A stretch of DNA of 64,000 nucleotides from assembly GCA_003614675.1 (NCBI GenBank), contig ML002213.1, forward strand, positions 1 to 64,000, written 5' to 3'. A program made the position numbers and the translations under genes. Under the pieces are notes generated by a model. The model did no database searches, was not told the origin of the DNA, and was given only the letters and a program-made list of their open reading frames with translations. Of the stretch, positions 1-63,601 are shown in pieces (within the stretch, counting starts at the first letter, position 1; every line of letters starts with the position of its first letter). The stretch comes from Dimargaris cristalligena (lineage: Eukaryota).

Positions 1-183
1 GGGGGGGGGAAGGGTGGGTTGTACAAGGGGTGATTAGTGGAGCACGGAGGCCATATTGGAAGAGATTTTGCCTCCCCAACAGATAAATACGTTAGTTAAT
101 GAATTACAGAACAGAGCGCTCTATCAATTAATTTTTCGATTTTAACAGTGTCCGATATTATAAATCACAATCAGGCACCTACA

Positions 184-191
<8 letters not shown>

Positions 192-227
<36 letters not shown>
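192..227. repeat. (TA)n microsatellite
   Basis: Perfect TA dinucleotide run. Confidence 0.95.
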
Positions 228-231
<4 letters not shown>

Positions 232-382
232 CGGTAAAGAGAGAAAATCATTTGAAACCCCAGGTCGAAAATCACTCGGCGTATCCTATACATCCCCAAT
301 CCATTCCTTTTAGGCTAGGGTTGGTATAAATAAATGAGGAAAATACTCCAACAGAAAAATATCCGCCAACTAAATTACTTAC

Positions 383-661
383 CTTCAATGACTCATACGG
401 ATGACTATTAATTAGACTAGACAACTGCCTGCATGTTTTAACTAACGAGGACCGCGAATGGCGGTAGGCTTGATCCACAACCAAAGTCAGCAACTCGTTG
501 GGTAACTGAAGCAAGTCCACTGGCTTCTTCAAGCGTTGGGCAGCCGTTTGGGAATCCTGACCCGGTGGGTTGGGTGCCGGGGTGACTCGCTGTACCTGGA
601 TACTCAGGGCAAATAGCCACAGAGCAGTCCAACCCAGGAGACTATAGCGTAGTGTGATCAT
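383..661 (-). CDS. Exon 1 of a putative secreted F-box protein (gene probably continues past the left window edge)
   Basis: ATG at 661 gives MITLRYSLLGWTALWLFALSIQVQRVTP (signal-peptide-like), then LLQLPNELLTLVVDQAYRHSRSSLVKTCRQLSSLIN (F-box-like LPxELL...VxTCR). The 279-nt exon ends at a phase-0 GTAAGT donor (382-377). Branch-like ACTAAC/ACTAAT and a pyrimidine tract lie near positions 1-100, so the next exon is probably outside the window. Confidence 0.6.
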
Positions 662-1817
662 TAGGGAACTGTCGAATAGGGGTTCAATGACTGGGTTGAA
701 TGTAGACTGGGTTCCTTCTACAAGGTGTGAGATAGTAGGCATAAAGCTATATATATATATATAAATAAGAACTAACAGCACAATAGTTATTTTTTTTAAA
801 AAAAAGAGAAGGGGGATCAATGTGGCATTTATAAGGAAACCAGCTAACTAACTAACATGCTAATTGCCGGAAAATATGTATGGCGAGGGACCCGGGGGGT
901 TCCCCATTTTTGTATATAAATTAAAAGTATACATATATATACTAAAGACTGGCATTTCCCTACCGCGCGTTTAGCCTGATCCCCCACCCCCAATGTCCCT
1001 CAAAATCAAATTGAAGAGAGCATACAATACTTAGTCAAGGCCTTTGTATAGTACTCAATAAACCATTCTGCAGCCCAACCACAAGACATGACAGTGGTAC
1101 GCAAAGGCAACACACGGAGGGTTGAGTAACTATCTAGGATACTCATCAGTCTGTACTCCCCCCTCCTATTCACTCCTTTTTATTTCCCCGTGGACCCAAT
1201 AGCTCCAGCCCTGTCGCGCCCCCCTTATCCTATTATACCAACGTGGCCTATTCTTCCTAACGCCGAAGATGTTGAATATCAGACGGTTTAGGATAAGTAC
1301 AGTGGCCAACGCGCCTTCGTTTCCTCCTTCCTCGCGTTCACCGGCCTAGCTTGTCTAATGGGCGTTATAGATCAGACGGGAAGAGGATATCGGCCGTATA
1401 TTTACCACGTACTCTAAAGGAGGCAACCCACCCAGAAATAGACGAGTGAGTCGCTCGGATGGACGCCTAGAATGTAATGTGGGCAGACGCACCTGTACAG
1501 GCCGGATTTGTTACACAGGTAGGTATGACCATGGTAGATTTGGTGCAATGATCATTATTATTATTTAGACCGGCCTCACTCGCTCGTTCTCTCTATTTGT
1601 CCTCTCTCCAACTGGCGCTCCCCTCCCCCTCTTCCTATGTTTGGCTATCCATACAGGGTCACGGCATTCAAGCAAATCTGTCTGTCTTGCTCAGGCGCAT
1701 GAAACGTTATGTCCAGAACTAACATTGTTGGGCGTGGTGAAAGGGAATGTAGAAAAGGCCTAGAGTAACGACGCGAACTCGGTGGCCTATGGGGCTTGAG
1801 TACATTCAGACAAATAA

Positions 1818-1962
1818 ATATGGGGAGAAGTTCATCCAAGCTGCATAACGAAAAATCCATTGAATGGGGCCAATATTACTAGTTAAAAATAAATTTCCCA
1901 TATATTCTCCCATACACGTATAATGTAAACCCTTATATAGTTGGGCTGAATTTCACCCATAT
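1818..1962 (+). mobile_element. MITE-like interspersed repeat, copy 1 (~145 bp, imperfect ~30-bp TIRs)
   Basis: Starts ATATGGGGAGAAGTTCATCCAAGCTGCATAA and ends TTATATAGTTGGGCTGAATTTCACCCATAT (imperfect reverse complement). Aligns end to end with 9037-9180 and the reverse complement of 15276-15418. Confidence 0.8.
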
Positions 1963-2188: not shown

Positions 2189-3214
2189 ATGGGTAATGAC
2201 GGTGGCACCATTCCCCGGCGTTTCGAGATCGTCAAACAAACCGCCAAAGCCACCAAACTCGACGAAAAGACCCTCCGCAAAGCCCTCTTCGCCCATTGCG
2301 CCCTGTCCAAACGTCCCCTCGAGGCCCCCCTAGTCGCCTGCGGCCTAGGTAACCTTTACAACAAGGACGCTATTCTCGAATTCCTACTCCAACCGACCAA
2401 GTACGGCGAAGGCCCGTTTATTTGTCCCCACATTACCTCCCTGAAGGATGTCGCGGACCTCAAGGGAGTGACGTTTAATCCCCATTACCGTGCCCATGCC
2501 CGGACGGTGACGACATCGGTCACCAATACCCAACACCACGACCGCGCCCAACCCAGTCCCCTGCTATGCCCCCTAACGCTAAAGGAATGCAACGGCAGCA
2601 ATCGGTTTGAATTCAACTGGGGCTGCGGGTGTCTTTATGCCCAGAAGGCTCGCCTGGAAATGGGCCAGGAGGCCCCCGGACGGTGCGTGGTGTGCGGCCA
2701 GCCTGCCCCGGAAAACGATATAGTACCGGTGTACCCCAATCGTGACGACGCGGAAGCGGAATGGAACCATTTGGTGAACCGAACTAAGGAACGGGCGGTG
2801 GAACGGCTGGATGCCAAGAAACGGGCCCGTAAGGCGGCCAAGGCGAAGAAAGAGGGTCGGATTTCGCCTACGTCAGTCATGGAAGTCTCGGCTGACGCGG
2901 ATGCGGTAGTGGAGGCGACCGGCAATGATAATGAGAAAAAGCGAAAGTTTGCTACTGCTCCCGTATCAGAATCGCCCCAGGATAGTTCGTCAAATCAAAC
3001 AACTTCGTCCGACACTGCCGAGTCCTCCGACGGTAAAATTTTATCCGCTGATAAACGGGATTTATCAAAGACAACAACCGATTCGAAGAGTGATCACCCG
3101 AAACGGGCCAAACTGATCGACGCTGATCAAGGCCTTGGCTCGCAAAAGATCGCCCCGGCCCGTAGGCCAGCCACCCATTCGAGCCGTGGCATTGCCACAA
3201 AAGCGGTCTATTAA
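2189..3214 (+). CDS. RTF2: Replication termination factor 2 (Rtf2 RING-like protein), 341 aa, intronless
   Basis: Diagnostic N-terminus MGNDGGTIPRR, then CALSKRPL..VACGLGNLYNKDAILEFLL, HITSLKDV, CPLT..NG..RF...WGCGC, CVVCG and a Lys-rich C-terminal half. Confidence 0.93.
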   Translation: MGNDGGTIPRRFEIVKQTAKATKLDEKTLRKALFAHCALSKRPLEAPLVACGLGNLYNKDAILEFLLQPTKYGEGPFICPHITSLKDVADLKGVTFNPHYRAHARTVTTSVTNTQHHDRAQPSPLLCPLTLKECNGSNRFEFNWGCGCLYAQKARLEMGQEAPGRCVVCGQPAPENDIVPVYPNRDDAEAEWNHLVNRTKERAVERLDAKKRARKAAKAKKEGRISPTSVMEVSADADAVVEATGNDNEKKRKFATAPVSESPQDSSSNQTTSSDTAESSDGKILSADKRDLSKTTTDSKSDHPKRAKLIDADQGLGSQKIAPARRPATHSSRGIATKAVY

Positions 3215-10121: not shown

Positions 10122-11477
10122 TTAGCAGATGTCGAACATATCCACCGCTCCAGTGACATTGCGGTTGCCCATAATACGCCCACCAGCGAAAATGACCATA
10201 CAGTCACCCACCGTGGCCACTGATGCACCGGTGCGGGGGATATGGAAGCCCATGTAGTTACTCTCACTGGTCACCCACTTTTGGGTATGAGTGTTGTACA
10301 CATCAATCGTCTTGGTCACAAGCCCGGACTGGTCGTTGATCAATCCGCCGCCGAATAAGACGAACTTGTTGCTAGCAAGGGAAGCGGTAGCGATTTGGGA
10401 ACGGGCTTCGGACAGCTGGAGTTTACCCCCTTGGTCCTTAGCGAGCCAGTGGGCGGAGGACTTGGTGGATTTAGCGAGGCCAACATCAAGCACTTCGACG
10501 TTGGCGGAAAAAGTGGAGCCCGACGGGCTGCTGCCTGGGCTAGAGGGCGCCGTACGACCGCCGGCATAGAAGAAGTAGCGACCGGCCAGAAGACCAACTG
10601 CTTCAAGCACCGCGGTCGACAGGTTGGGACCATTGATGAACAGGCTGTCAGATGATTTATCAGTTAGGCCTTCGTTGGATTTGAGGGACGTGGTAGTGAT
10701 GAGTCGGGTACGCTGGTCGACCTTCTGAACGGGTCGCACTTCGTTGGGGTTTTCGAAGTAATTGCCCCCTACGAGGACGCCCTTAACACTGGACTGCGAA
10801 GCCGGATCAGCGGCGGAATCCGGCGAGGATAGCATAGAGCCAGTGGCCGGACCAAATGAGAAATACGGTATAGCCGAGGACGAGCTTCCTGCCTTCATAA
10901 CCGAAGAGGTCCATTGCAACTTAGCATCCACCATGTCCACCGTAGTCGACGCAACCATGGGGCTGTTACCAGTAGCCGCACTGGCGTCCGCCGAGCCACT
11001 GACAAAGACCACTCGGTCGCCTAGACTCAGGGCCTGGATATTGGCACGCGGCAACGATAAACGCGCGGGTGGATTGAGCCACTGACCCGTCTGGGTATCG
11101 TAAATATCCACCACGTCACTGTAGGCGCTGGTGCCACTCACCATACCTCCGGCGAACAGAACGTACCGGTTAGCCAGGGTGGCACCGACCATGGACCGCC
11201 GGGCTTGGGATACATTCGAAGCGGACCATGTGTTGGTTTGGTGGTCGTAAACATCGACTAGAGTGGTGGGCTCGCCGACGTTATCTTCGCCACCGGCAAA
11301 AATGGCGTACCGGGAGGTACTGGCCACCGCCATGGCGGAACGCGAGTCTTTCAACCAGACGTTCTGGTAGTTCCAGGTGGGAACATCGCTGGAGCTGTCC
11401 AAGGGAGCGGGGTGGACCAGGGGGGCGGTGGTCAGCAGGATGGGAAGGATGAGGGTGGACCAATAGCTGTATTTCAT
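10122..11477 (-). CDS. Secreted Kelch-repeat beta-propeller protein, 451 aa, intronless
   Basis: Signal peptide MKYSYWSTLILPILLTTAPLVHP, then about six Kelch-type blades with (F/Y)AGG...VDVYD...W motifs (FAGGED..VDVYD..W, FAGGMV..VDIYD..W, YAGGRT..VEVLD, FGGGL..IDVYN..W, FAGGRI..VDMFD). Confidence 0.9.
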   Translation of the reverse strand: MKYSYWSTLILPILLTTAPLVHPAPLDSSSDVPTWNYQNVWLKDSRSAMAVASTSRYAIFAGGEDNVGEPTTLVDVYDHQTNTWSASNVSQARRSMVGATLANRYVLFAGGMVSGTSAYSDVVDIYDTQTGQWLNPPARLSLPRANIQALSLGDRVVFVSGSADASAATGNSPMVASTTVDMVDAKLQWTSSVMKAGSSSSAIPYFSFGPATGSMLSSPDSAADPASQSSVKGVLVGGNYFENPNEVRPVQKVDQRTRLITTTSLKSNEGLTDKSSDSLFINGPNLSTAVLEAVGLLAGRYFFYAGGRTAPSSPGSSPSGSTFSANVEVLDVGLAKSTKSSAHWLAKDQGGKLQLSEARSQIATASLASNKFVLFGGGLINDQSGLVTKTIDVYNTHTQKWVTSESNYMGFHIPRTGASVATVGDCMVIFAGGRIMGNRNVTGAVDMFDIC

Positions 11478-32718: not shown

Positions 32719-35522
32719 CTATAGGCCAGGCCCCATCAAATGACTGAATGATGATGCACTACCACCACCACCGCCCGACGACGACGACCCTAAACCGCCT
32801 GCGCCATTACCGCCCCCGAACAAAGCCGCCGCACTATTAGCCCCCATGCCGGACGAATTAAGCAGGGAATTAGACACACCACCGCTTCCCCCAGCCATGG
32901 ATGTGTTAAGGCCTCCTCCGCCTCCCGTCAAGATGGACATGGCCGCCGCGGCAGAGGCGCTACTGTATGCCAACGCGTTCGAGACGCCCGTACTTTGGAG
33001 GTGGTGATTGGAACCACCACTACCCATACCGCCGGACTGCTGTTGTTGCTGGGATAAATGGAGAGAGTGGCTATTCAGTAGGGAATGGTGGAGACCGGCT
33101 GGGTTACCGCCATGCGCCATAGGATTATTATCATACCCTCCACCACCACCGCCCATACTTTGGTGTTGCAGCTGTTGGAGTTGTGCCAGGAAATTGTGCT
33201 GTGAAGTCAGCCCCGACAGGGAATGGGCGTGTTGATGATGATGTTGTTGTTGCTGTTGAGCAAGCAGTGCTGAATGCGCGTTAGATAACCCGCCCCCACT
33301 CGCCGTCACCGAGTTGAGTAGCGTACGATGAAGGGCCGCGCTATTACTACCATTCAGGGCATCCATACCCATGGGTCCCGCCGAGGATAGACCGCCCCCA
33401 CCTAAGTTGGCCAAATCCTGCTGCTGATGCTGTTGTTGTTGCTGTTGCTGCTGGAGACTATTACCGCTCAAGTGAGGGGGAAGTGGACCGACCAACCCGG
33501 TTCGGTTAGGACCTCCGACTCCTCCCTGGATGCCGTGGCTTAACCCCGCCGCCATGCTCAGGTTAGGATTAGAAGAACCTCCACCCCCGCTCGGCGTGGG
33601 ATTCGGTCCCGAGCCGGCCGCCCCGCCCAAAAAAGCATGCCGATCCTCCAGCACGTCGTACATGAGTACGAATTCTTTATACACTTTCTGCCAGGTGCTG
33701 GGATCGAAAAAGATATACACGCCGTGTTCGCCCCCTCCTCCTTTGGCGGAATTCGAGCCAATCGGCATTGTCCCACCGTTGCCCCCGTTGGCCTCGGGGT
33801 CTTTCGTCAACCATAATTTCAGGTCTTTATGGTACCGCCAGTTCCGCTTGTATAGTTCCAACGCGGCGGTTTCCTGCAGTTCGTCCCGGGGCATGGTGTA
33901 GAAGATGTAAAACAGGGTTTCGTCCAGGAAATGGTCCATCCGTTCCACCGCGGGCCGCCGGGGCCGTACTTGGTAGCAGGCCGGTAGGGTGAATTCGGGT
34001 TTGATGTGCGAGAGATTGGCCTGGCTCTGGTCGATCCAAGGGGTCGTGAACGTCGCGTACAGGAGACCTGGGGAAGAGAGGTTAAGGCCGAATTTCGACA
34101 CGTCGTAGCCGAACGCGAGCGCCGATTTATCCGGGTTCGATGTTTTCAGCGTGTCCAACAGGCCCAGTAGGCCGTACTGGTTTTCGAGGGATGCCCGTCC
34201 GGCCGCGTCGGATGGTGACCCCACCGGGCTAACCACTGCCGCTGCCCGCGGGTGGTCCATGGGGTCACTCGCTCCGACATTCGATACACTAGCCGCAGCG
34301 GCAGCAGCAGCCGCCGCCACTGCCGCCCCCGTACTCCCACCACTGGGAGCCAGCGGGCTGGAAAGACCGTTGTCCGGTGGGCCCCCTTTAAGCTCATTAA
34401 ACGAAATAGTGGGTTTCCGGGGGGTTTCCCCTGGGGGGCGTTGGTAGGGGCCTGCGTTAGTCGTACCATTATTGCCAGGTCCAGGTCCACCGCTCACACC
34501 CGGGGAAGACAATGGCCCACCCGCTAGACCGGTAGGCGACTGGGGGTTTGCGACCAGGGATGATAATGGAACACTCGGGGTAGCCCCTGAAATCGCCATT
34601 GAACTTAAAGACGACGTTAATGAACCGACGCCATTCTGAACGTCATTAGACAGGTGGTGGTGGGTTGAACTACTATTGTCACCACCAACGCCGCTACTAC
34701 TACTACCACTATGACCCGCGGTGCCCAGGCTCGCTAACCGGTTAGCCATGCTGGGTGACGTTCCCGGAAGGGCCGGAAAATCCTCGGGGTTCATACTAGG
34801 CGTGACTTGGGAATGGTGGGCTCCCGCCGCCGCTTGGGCCGCCAGATTACTCGTGACGATGGACTTGAATTGCTCCGACCGGGTCGGTGGTTGGGAGGGC
34901 AGACCCGCCGACAATGGTGGAAAGGCATCGGACCGGGCTACCCCGAGGGAAGGAAATTCAGACAGGTCCAGGGTTTTGGCGTTGGCCGCAGCGGCCGCCG
35001 TGGATGCATGGGCTTGGTTGAACGTGGCCTTGAGGGCACTGGCGTTGGACCCCGGTATTTGGCCCCAGCTGCCTAGAGGTATCGTAATCGAGGCATATAT
35101 ATATATATATATAGATATAAATAAATGGGATTAGGCTAAACTTATCCCTTTTCTGTGAGGTAATGGACCATGGAGGACATGCCTTGGGGTTCAGGAAGGG
35201 AGAGAGTTGGTGAGCCATTTCTTCCTCCTCGCACCCACCCCTTCCGTACACCCATACCTATCCGCAGTTAGGACCCGATGGTAGCGCATCCCAGTGAAGA
35301 GACCCTTTCGTAGTATTAGCAGGAGGGGAGGTACAATCATCCCAGCGACTCGAGCCGAACGATAGACGAGGGGGATGAAGGGCTCGGACCAAGCACGTTA
35401 GTCCCAAGTAGTCGCTTCCCTTCTTCTCCCCTACCCGATGATTGCAGTCTCGTTAGACCTGGACGAGCGCGGGCTGTCTTACCTGTCCTTGAATTGCTGT
35501 TAAACCGAGGGAAGGATGTCAT
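32719..35522 (-). CDS. NOT2: CCR4-NOT complex subunit NOT2 (CNOT2), about 797 aa, 2 exons
   Basis: Exons 35522-35483 (MTSFPRFNSNSRT, GTAAGA, phase 1) and 35072-32719. NOT2 signature QYGLLGLL...LAFGYDVSKFGLNLSS..LYATFTTPW...PEFTLPACY and NOT box DETLFYIFYTMPRDELQETAALELYKRNWRYHKDLKLWL...FFDPSTW. N-terminal DLSEFPSL and EDFPAL motifs. Confidence 0.92.
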
Positions 35523-58806: not shown

Positions 58807-60507
58807 CTAAATGTAGTGCTTTCCATTTATATAGTACACCTTAGGCCTGGGGCGTTTGTCAGCAGTAAACTTGGTGACCACACTTAGGGGAATATCGGTG
58901 TTAGCAGGGTTAACTCCAGGAGCAGAAATGTGGGGCAGGTCAGTCACATTTTCCATTGGATCGGAGGCCTTATCAGCAGGCTTAACGGTAGGTTCCCAAT
59001 CAACCGCCTCATTAACGGCGTGGCTCTCGCCCACCATGCGGGCCGACACAGGCAAGAACAAATGGCCATCTGGTGTATTTATAAACATGCGGGGGTTAAG
59101 CAACATTCTCTTGAAACACCGCTGCATCGATGCACCGTAATTGTAATTCTGCAATTGGTAAGGGTCATGAGTAAACGGTTCCCGGTTTACTTTCGCCAAA
59201 ACGTCGCGCTTGAATTGGTCAGCCTCCAGGCTGCACTCAGCGACCCATCCCCCCTGTCCCTCCGGCAATTCTAGAACCCACTTTTGGGTCAGCGTATCTA
59301 CAATCGACTGGGTGTTCTTCGAGTTGAGGTCCATGCCGAACACCAAACTACTTAAAAATACGGCCTGGCCCAGCACCGTAGAACGGAGGTTGCCCAACTG
59401 TGCTTCTTGTTTGGGGTCCGAGAGATGGGCCACAAAGGCTTCTAAACTGGCCAACTTGTTCAGATAGAGGTGGTAGACCATGATGGTAGGAATAACGTGA
59501 CTAAACGTGAATGAGTCGCACACCATGGCCTGTTGCACTTCATTGAGATCTTGAACTGCCGTGGTGCCATCAGCAGCGGTGGTTGGGCCGTGGAAAAAGT
59601 ACTCGGGAATTTCCCGACGAGCGACTTCGGGAAGGGCATTCACCATAGTCCAATATAAATTTCCCCGCACGGTCTCGTTGAGTAAATACTCCACTAACGT
59701 TTCCATCGCCATGGTATCATCCTCACGAACCAACGACATAAGGGGAAACAGCCGCTCACGATCCAGGGGAAAAAAAGTACCCAATTCAATATAGCCAATA
59801 TCCAAGTCCGATTTTGTAGGGTCGTTGGGTTTCACCCGGTGGGTTGCATAGGATGAGCTACGCCAGAAGAGGTGATCATTGTACTCCGAAAATAAGTCGT
59901 CCTCGGTGACGACCAGACTCCCATGCACGTATATAGGAAAGTTCACCGATTGGCGATGCGCCTGGTTATCCTTGAGCAGTGCCAGATACGGCAGAAAAAG
60001 GCTTTCCAACCAGACAATGTGGGAGTTAGCGGAGTTGGCCGGACCCACATCACCCGTCACTGTCAAAGCCGGACTGGAATTGGCGGTGGACGTCATCGGC
60101 GTGGTAGGGTTGGAGAGATTGGTTTCCACCAGGGTATTGAACGAGCCGGCTAAATTGGTCCTAGACTGATAAATATCCAATTTTCCAGGCAAGCGAGAAA
60201 CCCGTATATACAAAAACAATAACACATACGTACCGAAATTAGATCCTATAAAAACATGGCGAAACGGCGTATACCAACATAACTATGCTGGCGACCACGA
60301 ATCTACGAGTAAGCCTAAAAATCAACCACCTATGCCTTCACTTATCTCGATTAAATAAATATATATTGTAGGCCCTTTTAAATTTACCTGACCCAGTCGA
60401 TTGTTTAATAGGCCTTTAATCTTGTCGAAAATCGGGCTACCTGAGGCCTGGGCGGCAAGCAAGCTGCTAATCAGGAGCACGCGACCCCAGTATTTGATTC
60501 CGGGCAT
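58807..60507 (-). CDS. Secreted protein of unrecognised family (paralogue A), about 492 aa, 2 exons
   Basis: Exon 1 60507-60388 (MPGIKYWGRVLLISSLLAAQASG-SPIFDKIK..., GTAAAT donor, phase 0), exon 2 60165-58807 (CAG acceptor, long open frame). Aligns by eye with 62166-63601. Confidence 0.8.
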
Positions 60508-62165: not shown

Positions 62166-63601
62166 TTAATAACGCTTCAAAGGAGTCACTATATCCCAGT
62201 TGATACCAACCGGGGTCAGTTGTGCGTGTTCGAAATCACTATCCATGACGGGTATATACAGATTTCCGTCCGAGAAAGTTGCGAATACCTTGGGGTTAAT
62301 TAGATTTTCGCGGAAGCACTTTAGAATAGGTGCCGTATAGCAGATATTGAGCTGCGATAGGCTATTGGGAAGACTCTGCTGGAATTCGGTTGCTCTGTTG
62401 TAACATGCAAGGGCAATATGCTGTTGCCTACCAGCAGGTACTTCATCCCATAGCTGCTTAAAAGCGATCTCTCGTTCTGGGTAATAAATCTGTTCACTAG
62501 ATCTACCGACTACTAGCCCTAGGAAAAAGAGGGCCTGGCTACGAATGGCCACATCCGCCAGATGGTTGAAATTGCCGGGATTCATCGATATCCCCGTTAC
62601 AAATTTCATCAAACCGACGTAATCACGCCGTTGAATGATAAAAGCCAACAAAGTGGGCATGAGGTGTCCGAACAGGAAACCGTCAGTGACCGCCATTTTA
62701 TTTTTCGATTGGCCTACCCAGGAATTTTTAACGAAGTAGTTACGTAGTTCACCTTTACTTAAATCGGAAGGTAGCATCCGCGTTAATTGATTGTAAAACG
62801 AACTATCCCCGATACGATTGAAGATTTGGTGAATGCCGCGAACCAGTTCGCCACCGGGGTCATTCCGGGCCATTTCCAATAGAGGAAACTGCTCCACGAG
62901 CGATTGATTTGACCAATCATCGATGCGAATGTAGGGTAGTGGATTAGGGTTCTCCGTTTTAGACTCCGTGGTGGTGATTGTGTTGGCATAATCCGAGACA
63001 AAATTAGTCCCAATGGATGGCTTGCCCCCGATGCTGCGGTCGGTTTGGGAACCAGTAACTACAACTTGATTGTGCGGTCGTGCCGATGTGGCAGGTGGAG
63101 TCGTATTGAATAGAGAGGTAATACGCTCCTTGAATCTTTTACTGATTGATTGTTTTGAAAACTGGGTCCAATATATATTGCGAAAACCGAAGGAGTCCCC
63201 CACAAGCGGGTCATCAAAGTACTGCATGTGGTCTTCCAATAGGGCCAGAAACGAGGAGAAATGTTTATGGAGTAAGTACTTCTGTTCACTTATAGTACTT
63301 CCCTAGAACATGTAGATAGGGTTGATAAGGCGTGTAAAATAACCAGAATACAGGCATGGGGTATATGCTATAGTGAATATCATTGGAAAGTTATGTGGCC
63401 CACATAAATGACCAGGCCCGTGGCCAGCATGCCAGGTGTGTGTATTCTTTGAGGAAGATATTAACATTTAACTGTGTCTTCAAGACTTACCTTGATAGAA
63501 TTGATATTGTATATCTTGATTTTGCTCTCGAAAAGGGGGACGCCGGCTACCAAAATAGTGGTGCCGACCACTAAACAACCGATGATATTCCATAGCCGCA
63601 T
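62166..63601 (-). CDS. Secreted protein of unrecognised family (paralogue B), about 415 aa, 2 exons
   Basis: Exon 1 63601-63491 (MRLWNIIGCLVVGTTILVAG-VPLFESKIK..., GTAAGT donor, phase 0), exon 2 63302-62166 (TAG acceptor, in frame with the 357-aa ORF). Confidence 0.8.

What the first reader, a model, noticed from the sequence alone, without database searches (positions are those of the whole stretch)
383..661. Signal peptide fused to an F-box motif: candidate secreted SCF-hijacking effector
Seen: a hydrophobic leader (MITLRYSLLGWTALWLFALSIQVQRVTP) followed about 20 residues later by LLQLPNELLTLVVDQAYRHSRSSLVKTCRQLSSLIN, then a canonical donor. Known: F-box domains bind Skp1 in the cytosol or nucleus, and translocated F-box effectors are used by bacterial pathogens (Agrobacterium VirF, Ralstonia GALA, Legionella AnkB). 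Inference: an F-box is useless in the secretory pathway of its own cell, so this protein may be delivered into a host cell to redirect host ubiquitination. That would be an unusual fungal effector class. The substrate-binding part should lie in exons beyond the window edge.
Basis: partly seen in the sequence, partly recalled or inferred. Interest (0 to 1): 0.72.

Follow-up and report, generated by a model that had tools for sequence, protein, structure and literature searches.

The report
Secreted F-box family in fungal parasite
This is the first exon of a gene from a large, fast-evolving gene family in a fungus that parasitises other fungi; most members join a secretion signal to a module that normally plugs into the cell's protein-destruction machinery, so they may be weapons aimed at the host fungus's own degradation system.

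Summary
Confirmed and larger than reported. Window 661-383 (minus strand) is exon 1 of a two-exon gene of the mycoparasite Dimargaris cristalligena. Exon 2 lies on another contig (G000:C112); a deposited protein joins both parts. The gene belongs to a family of 40 loci. 31 have an F-box-like first exon and 27 of these 31 have an in-frame hydrophobic leader. A related superfamily has at least 102 loci. Of 57 F-box hits examined genome-wide, 33 of 42 short-exon ones have a leader, against 0 of 15 ordinary ones. This copy's F-box is below Pfam's cut-off, but two paralogs pass it. A model with a fungal Skp1 scores 0.80 against a best control of 0.01 (may reflect solved look-alikes). The ~400-residue helical second domain was found only in Dimargaritales. 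Best reading: secreted SCF-hijacking effectors, analogous to Hessian fly SSGP-71, used by a fungus against fungi. Secretion, delivery into the host, real binding and expression are untested.

The parts
383..661 (-). Exon 1 coding part, 93 aa (leader, linker, F-box-like domain)
   Evidence: aa 1-72 match deposited protein P0047 at 71 of 72
578..661 (-). Hydrophobic leader, aa 1-28, putative signal peptide
   Evidence: best 11-residue hydrophobicity 1.94; 21.3 bits against a profile of 26 paralog leaders, next best window 32-mer 7.6. Cleavage not predicted by any tool here
515..577 (-). Pro/Gln-rich linker, aa 29-49; of variable length in paralogs
   Evidence: alignment A2
398..514 (-). F-box-like domain, aa 50-88
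   Evidence: PF00646 E 0.0056, below cut-off; family profile vs ordinary F-boxes 93.7%; Skp1 model
377..382 (-). Phase-0 splice donor GTAAGT, at the position shared by the family
   Evidence: phase-0 donor at the same place in 26 of 30 family loci examined
441..446 (-). Earlier donor-like GTTAGT apparently used by the deposited model P0047; it would remove aa 73-93, half of the F-box. Probably a wrong call
   Evidence: the removed residues are conserved in paralogs and form low-error Skp1 contacts in the model
1..382 (-). Intron, cut by the contig end; holds an (AT)n run near 179-237, a branch-point-like ACTAAT at 38-33 and a pyrimidine tract at 30-1
   Evidence: sequence; paralog introns end in similar C-rich tracts. 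Branch point is inference. Exon 2 continues at about G000:C112:47-1345, plus strand
740..742 (-). Upstream in-frame ATG, probably not used
748..766 (-). TATA-like (TA)n run 92-96 nt upstream of ATG 661
   Evidence: promoter role is inference
1025..1069 (+). 45 nt identical to the first 45 nt of contig C112, inverted relative to the gene
   Evidence: assembly chimera or small inversion, not resolved

Best explanation
A secreted F-box mimic effector of a fungal parasite of fungi. SHOWN: two-exon gene; exon 1 holds leader, linker and F-box-like domain; exon 2 holds a ~400-aa helical domain; the design is repeated in dozens of diverged paralogs. INFERRED, in order: (1) the leader sends the protein through the parasite's secretory pathway and is cut off, leaving the F-box near the N-terminus; (2) it is released at the haustorium and reaches the host cytosol; (3) the F-box binds host Skp1 and joins host SCF ligase; (4) the variable helical domain picks host proteins for ubiquitination and destruction, different paralogs picking different targets. 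Step 3 has model support only; steps 2 and 4 rest on analogy.
For: Gene closed by P0047. Family of 40 loci on 38 contigs; 31 of 40 with an F-box-like exon 1, 27 of those 31 with an in-frame leader. Genome-wide, 33 of 42 short-exon F-box hits have a leader, 0 of 15 long-frame ones; chance rate 20 of 103 window frames. Two family members pass the PF00646 cut-off, 27.5 and 24.2 bits. Family F-box profile vs the genome's 12 ordinary F-boxes: probability 93.7, E 1.8e-7; 16 of 24 motifs beat all 100 shuffles. Model of this F-box with a Mucoromycota Skp1 (P0096): score 0.80, best of 3 controls 0.01, runs agree in at least 76% of contacts, partner pLDDT at least 78. The mark was reached by 51 of 78 solved complexes and 2 of 108 mismatched pairs; on eukaryotes by 71 of 105 solved and 2 of 126 unrelated pairs. 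A Cys pair in exon 2 is kept or lost together (28 both, 12 neither, 2 one only, of 42 rows with both columns filled; few independent changes on the tree), which fits a disulfide and so passage through the ER. All 20 of 46 profile hits that I looked up are Dimargaritales, which feed through haustoria on other fungi (PMC9866270). Lineage-restricted expansion with broken copies fits effector families (established pattern).
Against: This copy is below both Pfam cut-offs. Only 3 of 10 first exons matched PF12937 even at E 1. The family F-box profile retrieved no F-box protein from solved structures at E 10. 8 of 24 motifs, this one included, did not beat all shuffles. Skp1-F-box complexes are solved many times over, so the model pass may show likeness only; the tool says host-parasite pairs are untested, and the Skp1 was a stand-in. 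6 of 40 family loci have a leader but no F-box, and two related window genes lack it too, so the helical domain can act alone. A disulfide suits an extracellular protein as well. The leader test is a home-made rule, and 3 of the 15 long-frame controls could not pass it by construction (F-box within 22 aa of the first Met). No delivery route from a mycoparasite into host cytosol was examined.
Confidence: 0.55

Rival explanations
1. Secreted but acting outside cells (wall, haustorial interface, medium). The F-box-like helices are a relic or a folding cap and do not meet Skp1.
For: Sub-threshold F-box in most members; 6 of 40 loci without it; probable disulfide; F-box-less relatives in the window.
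Against: The LP.E motif and helix pattern are kept across paralogs whose second domains are only about 20-40% identical, while the neighbouring linker is not conserved; some superfamily members pass Pfam cut-offs; the Skp1 model passes.
Confidence: 0.18
2. Delivered into the host but acting as a Skp1 decoy: it occupies host Skp1 and blocks host SCF ligases rather than bringing new substrates.
For: Same evidence as the best explanation up to Skp1 binding; no substrate-binding repeat family (LRR, WD40, ankyrin) was detected in exon 2.
Against: A decoy needs neither a conserved, well-folded 400-aa domain (pLDDT 83-85) nor about 100 diverged versions of it.
Confidence: 0.15
3. The leader is an uncleaved membrane anchor, or the upstream ATG is used, and the protein is a membrane-tethered F-box adaptor of the parasite's own SCF.
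For: In-frame ATG at 742; the genome has two Skp1-domain loci; no SignalP result.
Against: Family leaders are short, with basic residues first and small residues plus Pro after the hydrophobic stretch, the pattern of cleaved signal peptides (pattern recalled); 25 of 27 lack an upstream ATG; the paired Cys fits a luminal or outside location.
Confidence: 0.08
4. The family is as described but this copy is silent or broken in the unsequenced gap.
For: Several paralogs carry stops or frameshifts; the 5' end of exon 2 falls in an assembly gap and was not seen.
Against: Exon 1 and the 430-codon exon 2 are open in two assemblies, with one conservative change in each part.
Confidence: 0.04

Closest known systems
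Hessian fly SSGP-71 effectors (Zhao et al. 2015, seen only through passages of reviews PMC10317074 and PMC4617103)
   Same: Eukaryotic parasite; large family (426 members); signal peptide plus N-terminal F-box; some members lack the F-box; proposed hijack of host SCF
   Different: Insect on wheat, leucine-rich repeats as target domain, Skp binding shown. Here a fungus on fungi, a non-repeat helical domain with no Pfam match, binding only modelled. No homology test was run against SSGP-71
Ralstonia RipG/GALA type III effectors (passage of PMC4617103); Agrobacterium VirF and Legionella AnkB (recalled)
   Same: F-box delivered by a parasite to recruit host Skp1
   Different: Bacterial, injected by type III or IV systems, no ER signal peptide; LRR or ankyrin target domains
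Microsporidian NemLGF2 family of Nematocida displodere (passages of PMC4928854)
   Same: Species-specific expansion in a fungus-related parasite; signal peptide or N-terminal membrane segment plus a ubiquitin-ligase module; function untested
   Different: RING domain at the C-terminus, not an F-box; intracellular parasite of animals
Rhizophagus clarus effector candidate NLS_30765 (passages of PMC4746824)
   Same: Fungal effector candidate with an F-box-like domain (PF12937)
   Different: One computational candidate in a plant symbiont; no family described in the passages seen
Ordinary fungal F-box proteins (15 long-frame hits in this genome)
   Same: Homologous F-box core
   Different: No leader (0 of 15) and mostly no intron right after the F-box (2 of 15)

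Membership tests
F-box domain (PF00646/PF12937) | Score above Pfam's curated cut-off | tested here: not met
   17.0 vs 20.5 bits and 13.9 vs 24.3 for this copy; met by paralogs C1043 and C143
F-box domain (PF00646/PF12937) | Homology of the family motif to ordinary F-boxes | tested here: met
   profile-profile probability 93.7, E 1.8e-7, 36 columns; 16 of 24 beat all shuffles; against: no F-box chain retrieved from solved structures
F-box domain (PF00646/PF12937) | Binds Skp1 | tested here: inconclusive
   model 0.80 vs best control 0.01, may reflect solved look-alikes; no experiment
Secreted F-box mimic effectors (SSGP-71 type) | N-terminal signal peptide | tested here: inconclusive
   hydrophobic leader homologous across the family, 33 of 42 vs 0 of 15; no SignalP, no secretion assay
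Secreted F-box mimic effectors (SSGP-71 type) | Lineage-specific expansion in a parasite | tested here: met
   40 core loci, at least 102 in the superfamily; 20 of 20 hits looked up are Dimargaritales
SSGP-71 / RipG families proper | C-terminal leucine-rich repeats | tested here: not met
   no LRR family among 10 plus 40 proteins scanned; models are helical with a few short strands
Secreted F-box mimic effectors (SSGP-71 type) | Delivered into host cells and active in host SCF | not testable with these tools
   needs experiments
Secreted F-box mimic effectors (SSGP-71 type) | Expressed during host contact | not testable with these tools
   no expression data could be examined
Known fold for exon-2 domain | Structural match to a solved domain | tested here: inconclusive
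   best Z 7.2 (rmsd 6.3, 93 aligned) and 7.1 (rmsd 4.9, 154 aligned), within the range of common helical arrangements

The most novel reading that the evidence does not exclude
Dimargaris carries an arsenal of about 100 secreted proteins, most with an F-box, built on an undescribed helical domain, and delivers them through its haustorium to reprogram the ubiquitin system of a fungal host. This would be a host-translocated effector class in a fungus-on-fungus parasite, arrived at independently of Hessian fly SSGP-71 and bacterial RipG. The divergent Skp1 proteins of Dimargaritales might keep the parasite's own SCF out of reach (speculative).
Probability: 0.5. Interest if true: 0.88.

Novelty: new variant of a known kind. 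Interest (0 to 1): 0.76.

Why it matters
How biotrophic mycoparasites control a living fungal host is close to unknown at the molecular level; two genome papers covering this fungus discuss proteases, chitinases and peptide synthetases and never use the word F-box in their main text. This family gives named candidates with a sharp first test, Skp1 binding in yeast. If it holds, hijacking host SCF by secreted F-box mimics has arisen again in a fungus attacking fungi, with a new target-binding domain. It also shows that deposited gene models hide the class by cutting off or mis-splicing the first exon.

Tried and rejected
Sequencing runs: no RNA holder listed; this says nothing on expression. 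The contigs of 4 runs laid on 1-1500 gave no piece spanning the (AT)n run at 179-237. A search of exon 1 against longer proteins found nothing at E 10 among 182 candidates, although P0047 exists, so that search was insensitive. Fold searches found no clear match for the exon-2 domain: Foldseek on solved structures none at E 0.001, viral models none, VIA best Z 7.2 and 7.1, sequence profile against solved chains none. The ESM Atlas gave only leads under 0.9, one of them named F-box domain-containing protein. The word-based search with the superfamily alignment returned 5 proteins, all D. cristalligena, from 8000 scored candidates, too insensitive to bound the range. Rejected: a small middle exon at about 314-200 (no likeness to paralogs; the nearest paralog has one phase-0 intron); ATG 742 as start; the early donor at 446; window 1025-1079 as part of a second plus-strand gene (match ends after 45-56 nt). 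Literature: 10 searches. 'secreted F-box' with 'fung' gave 0 papers; 'F-box effector', 'signal peptide', 'fungal', 'Skp1' together gave 0; the library lacks most subscription papers. PMC5954228 mentions only a cytoplasmic F-box/LRR gene. One supplement file of PMC9866270 was searched without a hit; supplements of the other papers were not examined. Five look-ups in this scan's notes showed no such family.

Full report
Observation. Pfam places PF00646 at aa 50-88 with E 0.0056 and 17.0 bits, under the 20.5 cut-off. An in-frame ATG lies 27 codons upstream at 742. The window is G000:C6:1-64000, so position 1 is a contig end.

The rest of the gene. Exon 1 gave 12 matches in the genome, itself included. 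The paralog loci carry a large downstream exon. Contig C112 begins with such an exon but has no first exon for it, and holds the closest paralog next door; the two exon-2 domains are sisters in a tree (100/96). A deposited D. cristalligena protein from another assembly, P0047 (KAJ1988934.1, 498 aa), starts with this exon (71 of 72 identical, F17L) and continues with the C112 exon. A rough length check agrees. In run X5 one contig has 10,807 nt to the left of window position 1. C112 has, at about 10,780-10,925, a copy of the repeat in which three run contigs covering this exon end by their stated lengths (window 1852, aligned to C112:10,815). The gap is then a few tens of bases (inference). The first 45 nt of C112 are an inverted copy of window 1025-1069, a chimera or inversion that I did not resolve. 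The first codons of exon 2 were therefore not seen.

The deposited model is probably mis-spliced. P0047 jumps from aa 72 to exon 2, which fits a donor at 446, and loses aa 73-93. Those residues are conserved in paralogs. A phase-0 donor sits at the position of 382 in 26 of 30 family loci examined.

The family. Two exon-2 searches give 40 loci on 38 contigs, a lower bound. 31 of 40 have an F-box-like first exon, 6 have a leader without one, and for 3 I found no first exon. Of the 31, 27 pass a simple leader rule in frame, 3 have the leader in a shifted frame, and 1 fails on one acidic residue (two duplicate or spurious rows of the 33 printed were dropped). A profile of 26 paralog leaders built without this copy ranks this leader first among 589 ATG-started 32-mers of the window, 21.3 bits against 7.6, and gives ATG 742 -0.7. 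Several loci carry stops or frameshifts.

A genome-wide class. Pfam F-box searches gave 48 and 46 matches, 63 distinct loci; I examined 57 (6 not fetched; one second exon piece merged). The 15 with a long frame after the F-box have no leader (3 could not pass by construction). Of the 42 with a short frame, 33 have a leader, 32 a phase-0 donor just after the F-box, and 27 both; 4 of the 42 are core-family loci. The rule fires in 20 of 103 window frames by chance. The downstream exons of 35 non-core loci mostly form one linked cluster of 28. An alignment of 23 of them matches the core family's exon 2 with probability 96.3, E 1.7e-9, over 257 columns. The union of my searches is at least 102 loci, broken ones included; first exons were not checked for all of them.

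Is it an F-box? For: family profile against the genome's 12 ordinary F-boxes, probability 93.7; two core members over the PF00646 cut-off; 16 of 24 motifs above all 100 shuffles. Against: this copy was matched by 1 of 100 shuffles; only 3 of 10 first exons hit PF12937; the family profile found no F-box among solved chains. A model of window 383-538 with Skp1 of Gamsiella multidivaricata (P0096, a stand-in for the host) scored 0.80 against a best control of 0.01; the runs agree in at least 76% of contacts and partner pLDDT is at least 78. That mark was reached by 51 of 78 solved and 2 of 108 mismatched pairs, and on eukaryotes by 71 of 105 solved and 2 of 126 unrelated pairs. Alignments were not used, host-parasite pairs are untested, and Skp1-F-box complexes are well represented among solved structures (recalled), so the pass shows likeness and not binding. 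Many of the lowest-error contacts involve aa 72-77, the part P0047 omits.

The second domain. Models of paralog P0003 and of this gene's exon 2 (P0007) are confident and mostly helical (pLDDT 84.7 and 83.2). No Pfam family fits convincingly. A profile search of 1.84 billion representatives returned 46 proteins; the 20 looked up are 18 D. cristalligena and 2 Tieghemiomyces parasiticus. Those two deposited models show no obvious leader or F-box, so the full design is shown only for D. cristalligena. Two cysteines are kept or lost together (28 both, 12 neither, 2 one only; 2 gapped rows left out; the 2 exceptions are one gene seen twice; about 4 changes on the tree). This suggests a disulfide (inference).

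Mechanism. Dimargaritales parasitise Mucoromycota and Ascomycota through an appressorium and a biotrophic haustorium (PMC9866270, passages). Skp1 works in cytosol and nucleus (established knowledge), so an F-box kept behind a secretion leader in dozens of diverged genes is best explained by a target in another cell. I put 0.55 on host SCF adaptors, 0.15 on host Skp1 decoys, 0.18 on an extracellular role with a relic F-box, 0.08 on an own-cell anchored adaptor and 0.04 on this copy being dead.

Known relatives and novelty. It works like Hessian fly SSGP-71 (signal peptide plus F-box, 426 members, Skp binding; review passages) and bacterial RipG, but is a member of neither, since it has no leucine-rich repeats. 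Microsporidian NemLGF2 (signal peptide plus RING) and one Rhizophagus candidate are the nearest cases on the fungal side. The main texts of PMC9866270 and PMC6784888 contain 'F-box' 0 times (term search and passages). UniRef labels a few members 'F-box domain-containing protein' automatically. My ten searches found no description of the class, within a library that lacks most subscription papers. Verdict: real feature, new variant of a known kind, interest 0.76.

Noticed in passing
window 58807-60507 and 62166-63601, minus strand: Two neighbouring paralogs (28% identical) with a signal-peptide-like first exon, a phase-0 intron and a large second exon weakly like the superfamily (probability 76, E 2.2e-5), but no F-box.
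   Followed up: partly
window 1818-1962: A ~145-nt high-copy repeat: 1063 candidates, 40 scored, 44 matches, most 90-96% identical, sometimes in pairs. Ends look like a short imperfect inverted repeat by eye; the repeat finder did not report it. Possibly a MITE.
   Followed up: partly
window 1025-1069 and G000:C112:1-45: Identical 45 nt in inverted orientation on the two sides of exon 1, followed by a short microhomology; assembly chimera or small inversion.
   Followed up: partly
G000:C77:29512-29655 and C314:14224-14538: Two Skp1-domain loci. Skp1 of three Dimargaritales is 55-60% identical to Gamsiella Skp1, against 64-79% for 24 other fungal Skp1 sequences. Faster evolution or self-protection; untested.
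   Followed up: no
P0047, P0007, P0004, P0005, P0001: Deposited gene models of the family often lack exon 1 or cut the F-box, which hides the class from annotation-based surveys.
   Followed up: partly
G000 C283, C666, C569, C960, C734, C46, C329, C160, C428, C191:28378: Family loci with stops or frameshifts, as expected of a birth-and-death family.
   Followed up: no
window 2189-3214 (+), 10122-11477 (-), 32719-34794 (-): Other frames that look like an Rtf2-type protein, a secreted kelch-repeat protein and a NOT2-type protein; names are recalled, not tested.
   Followed up: no
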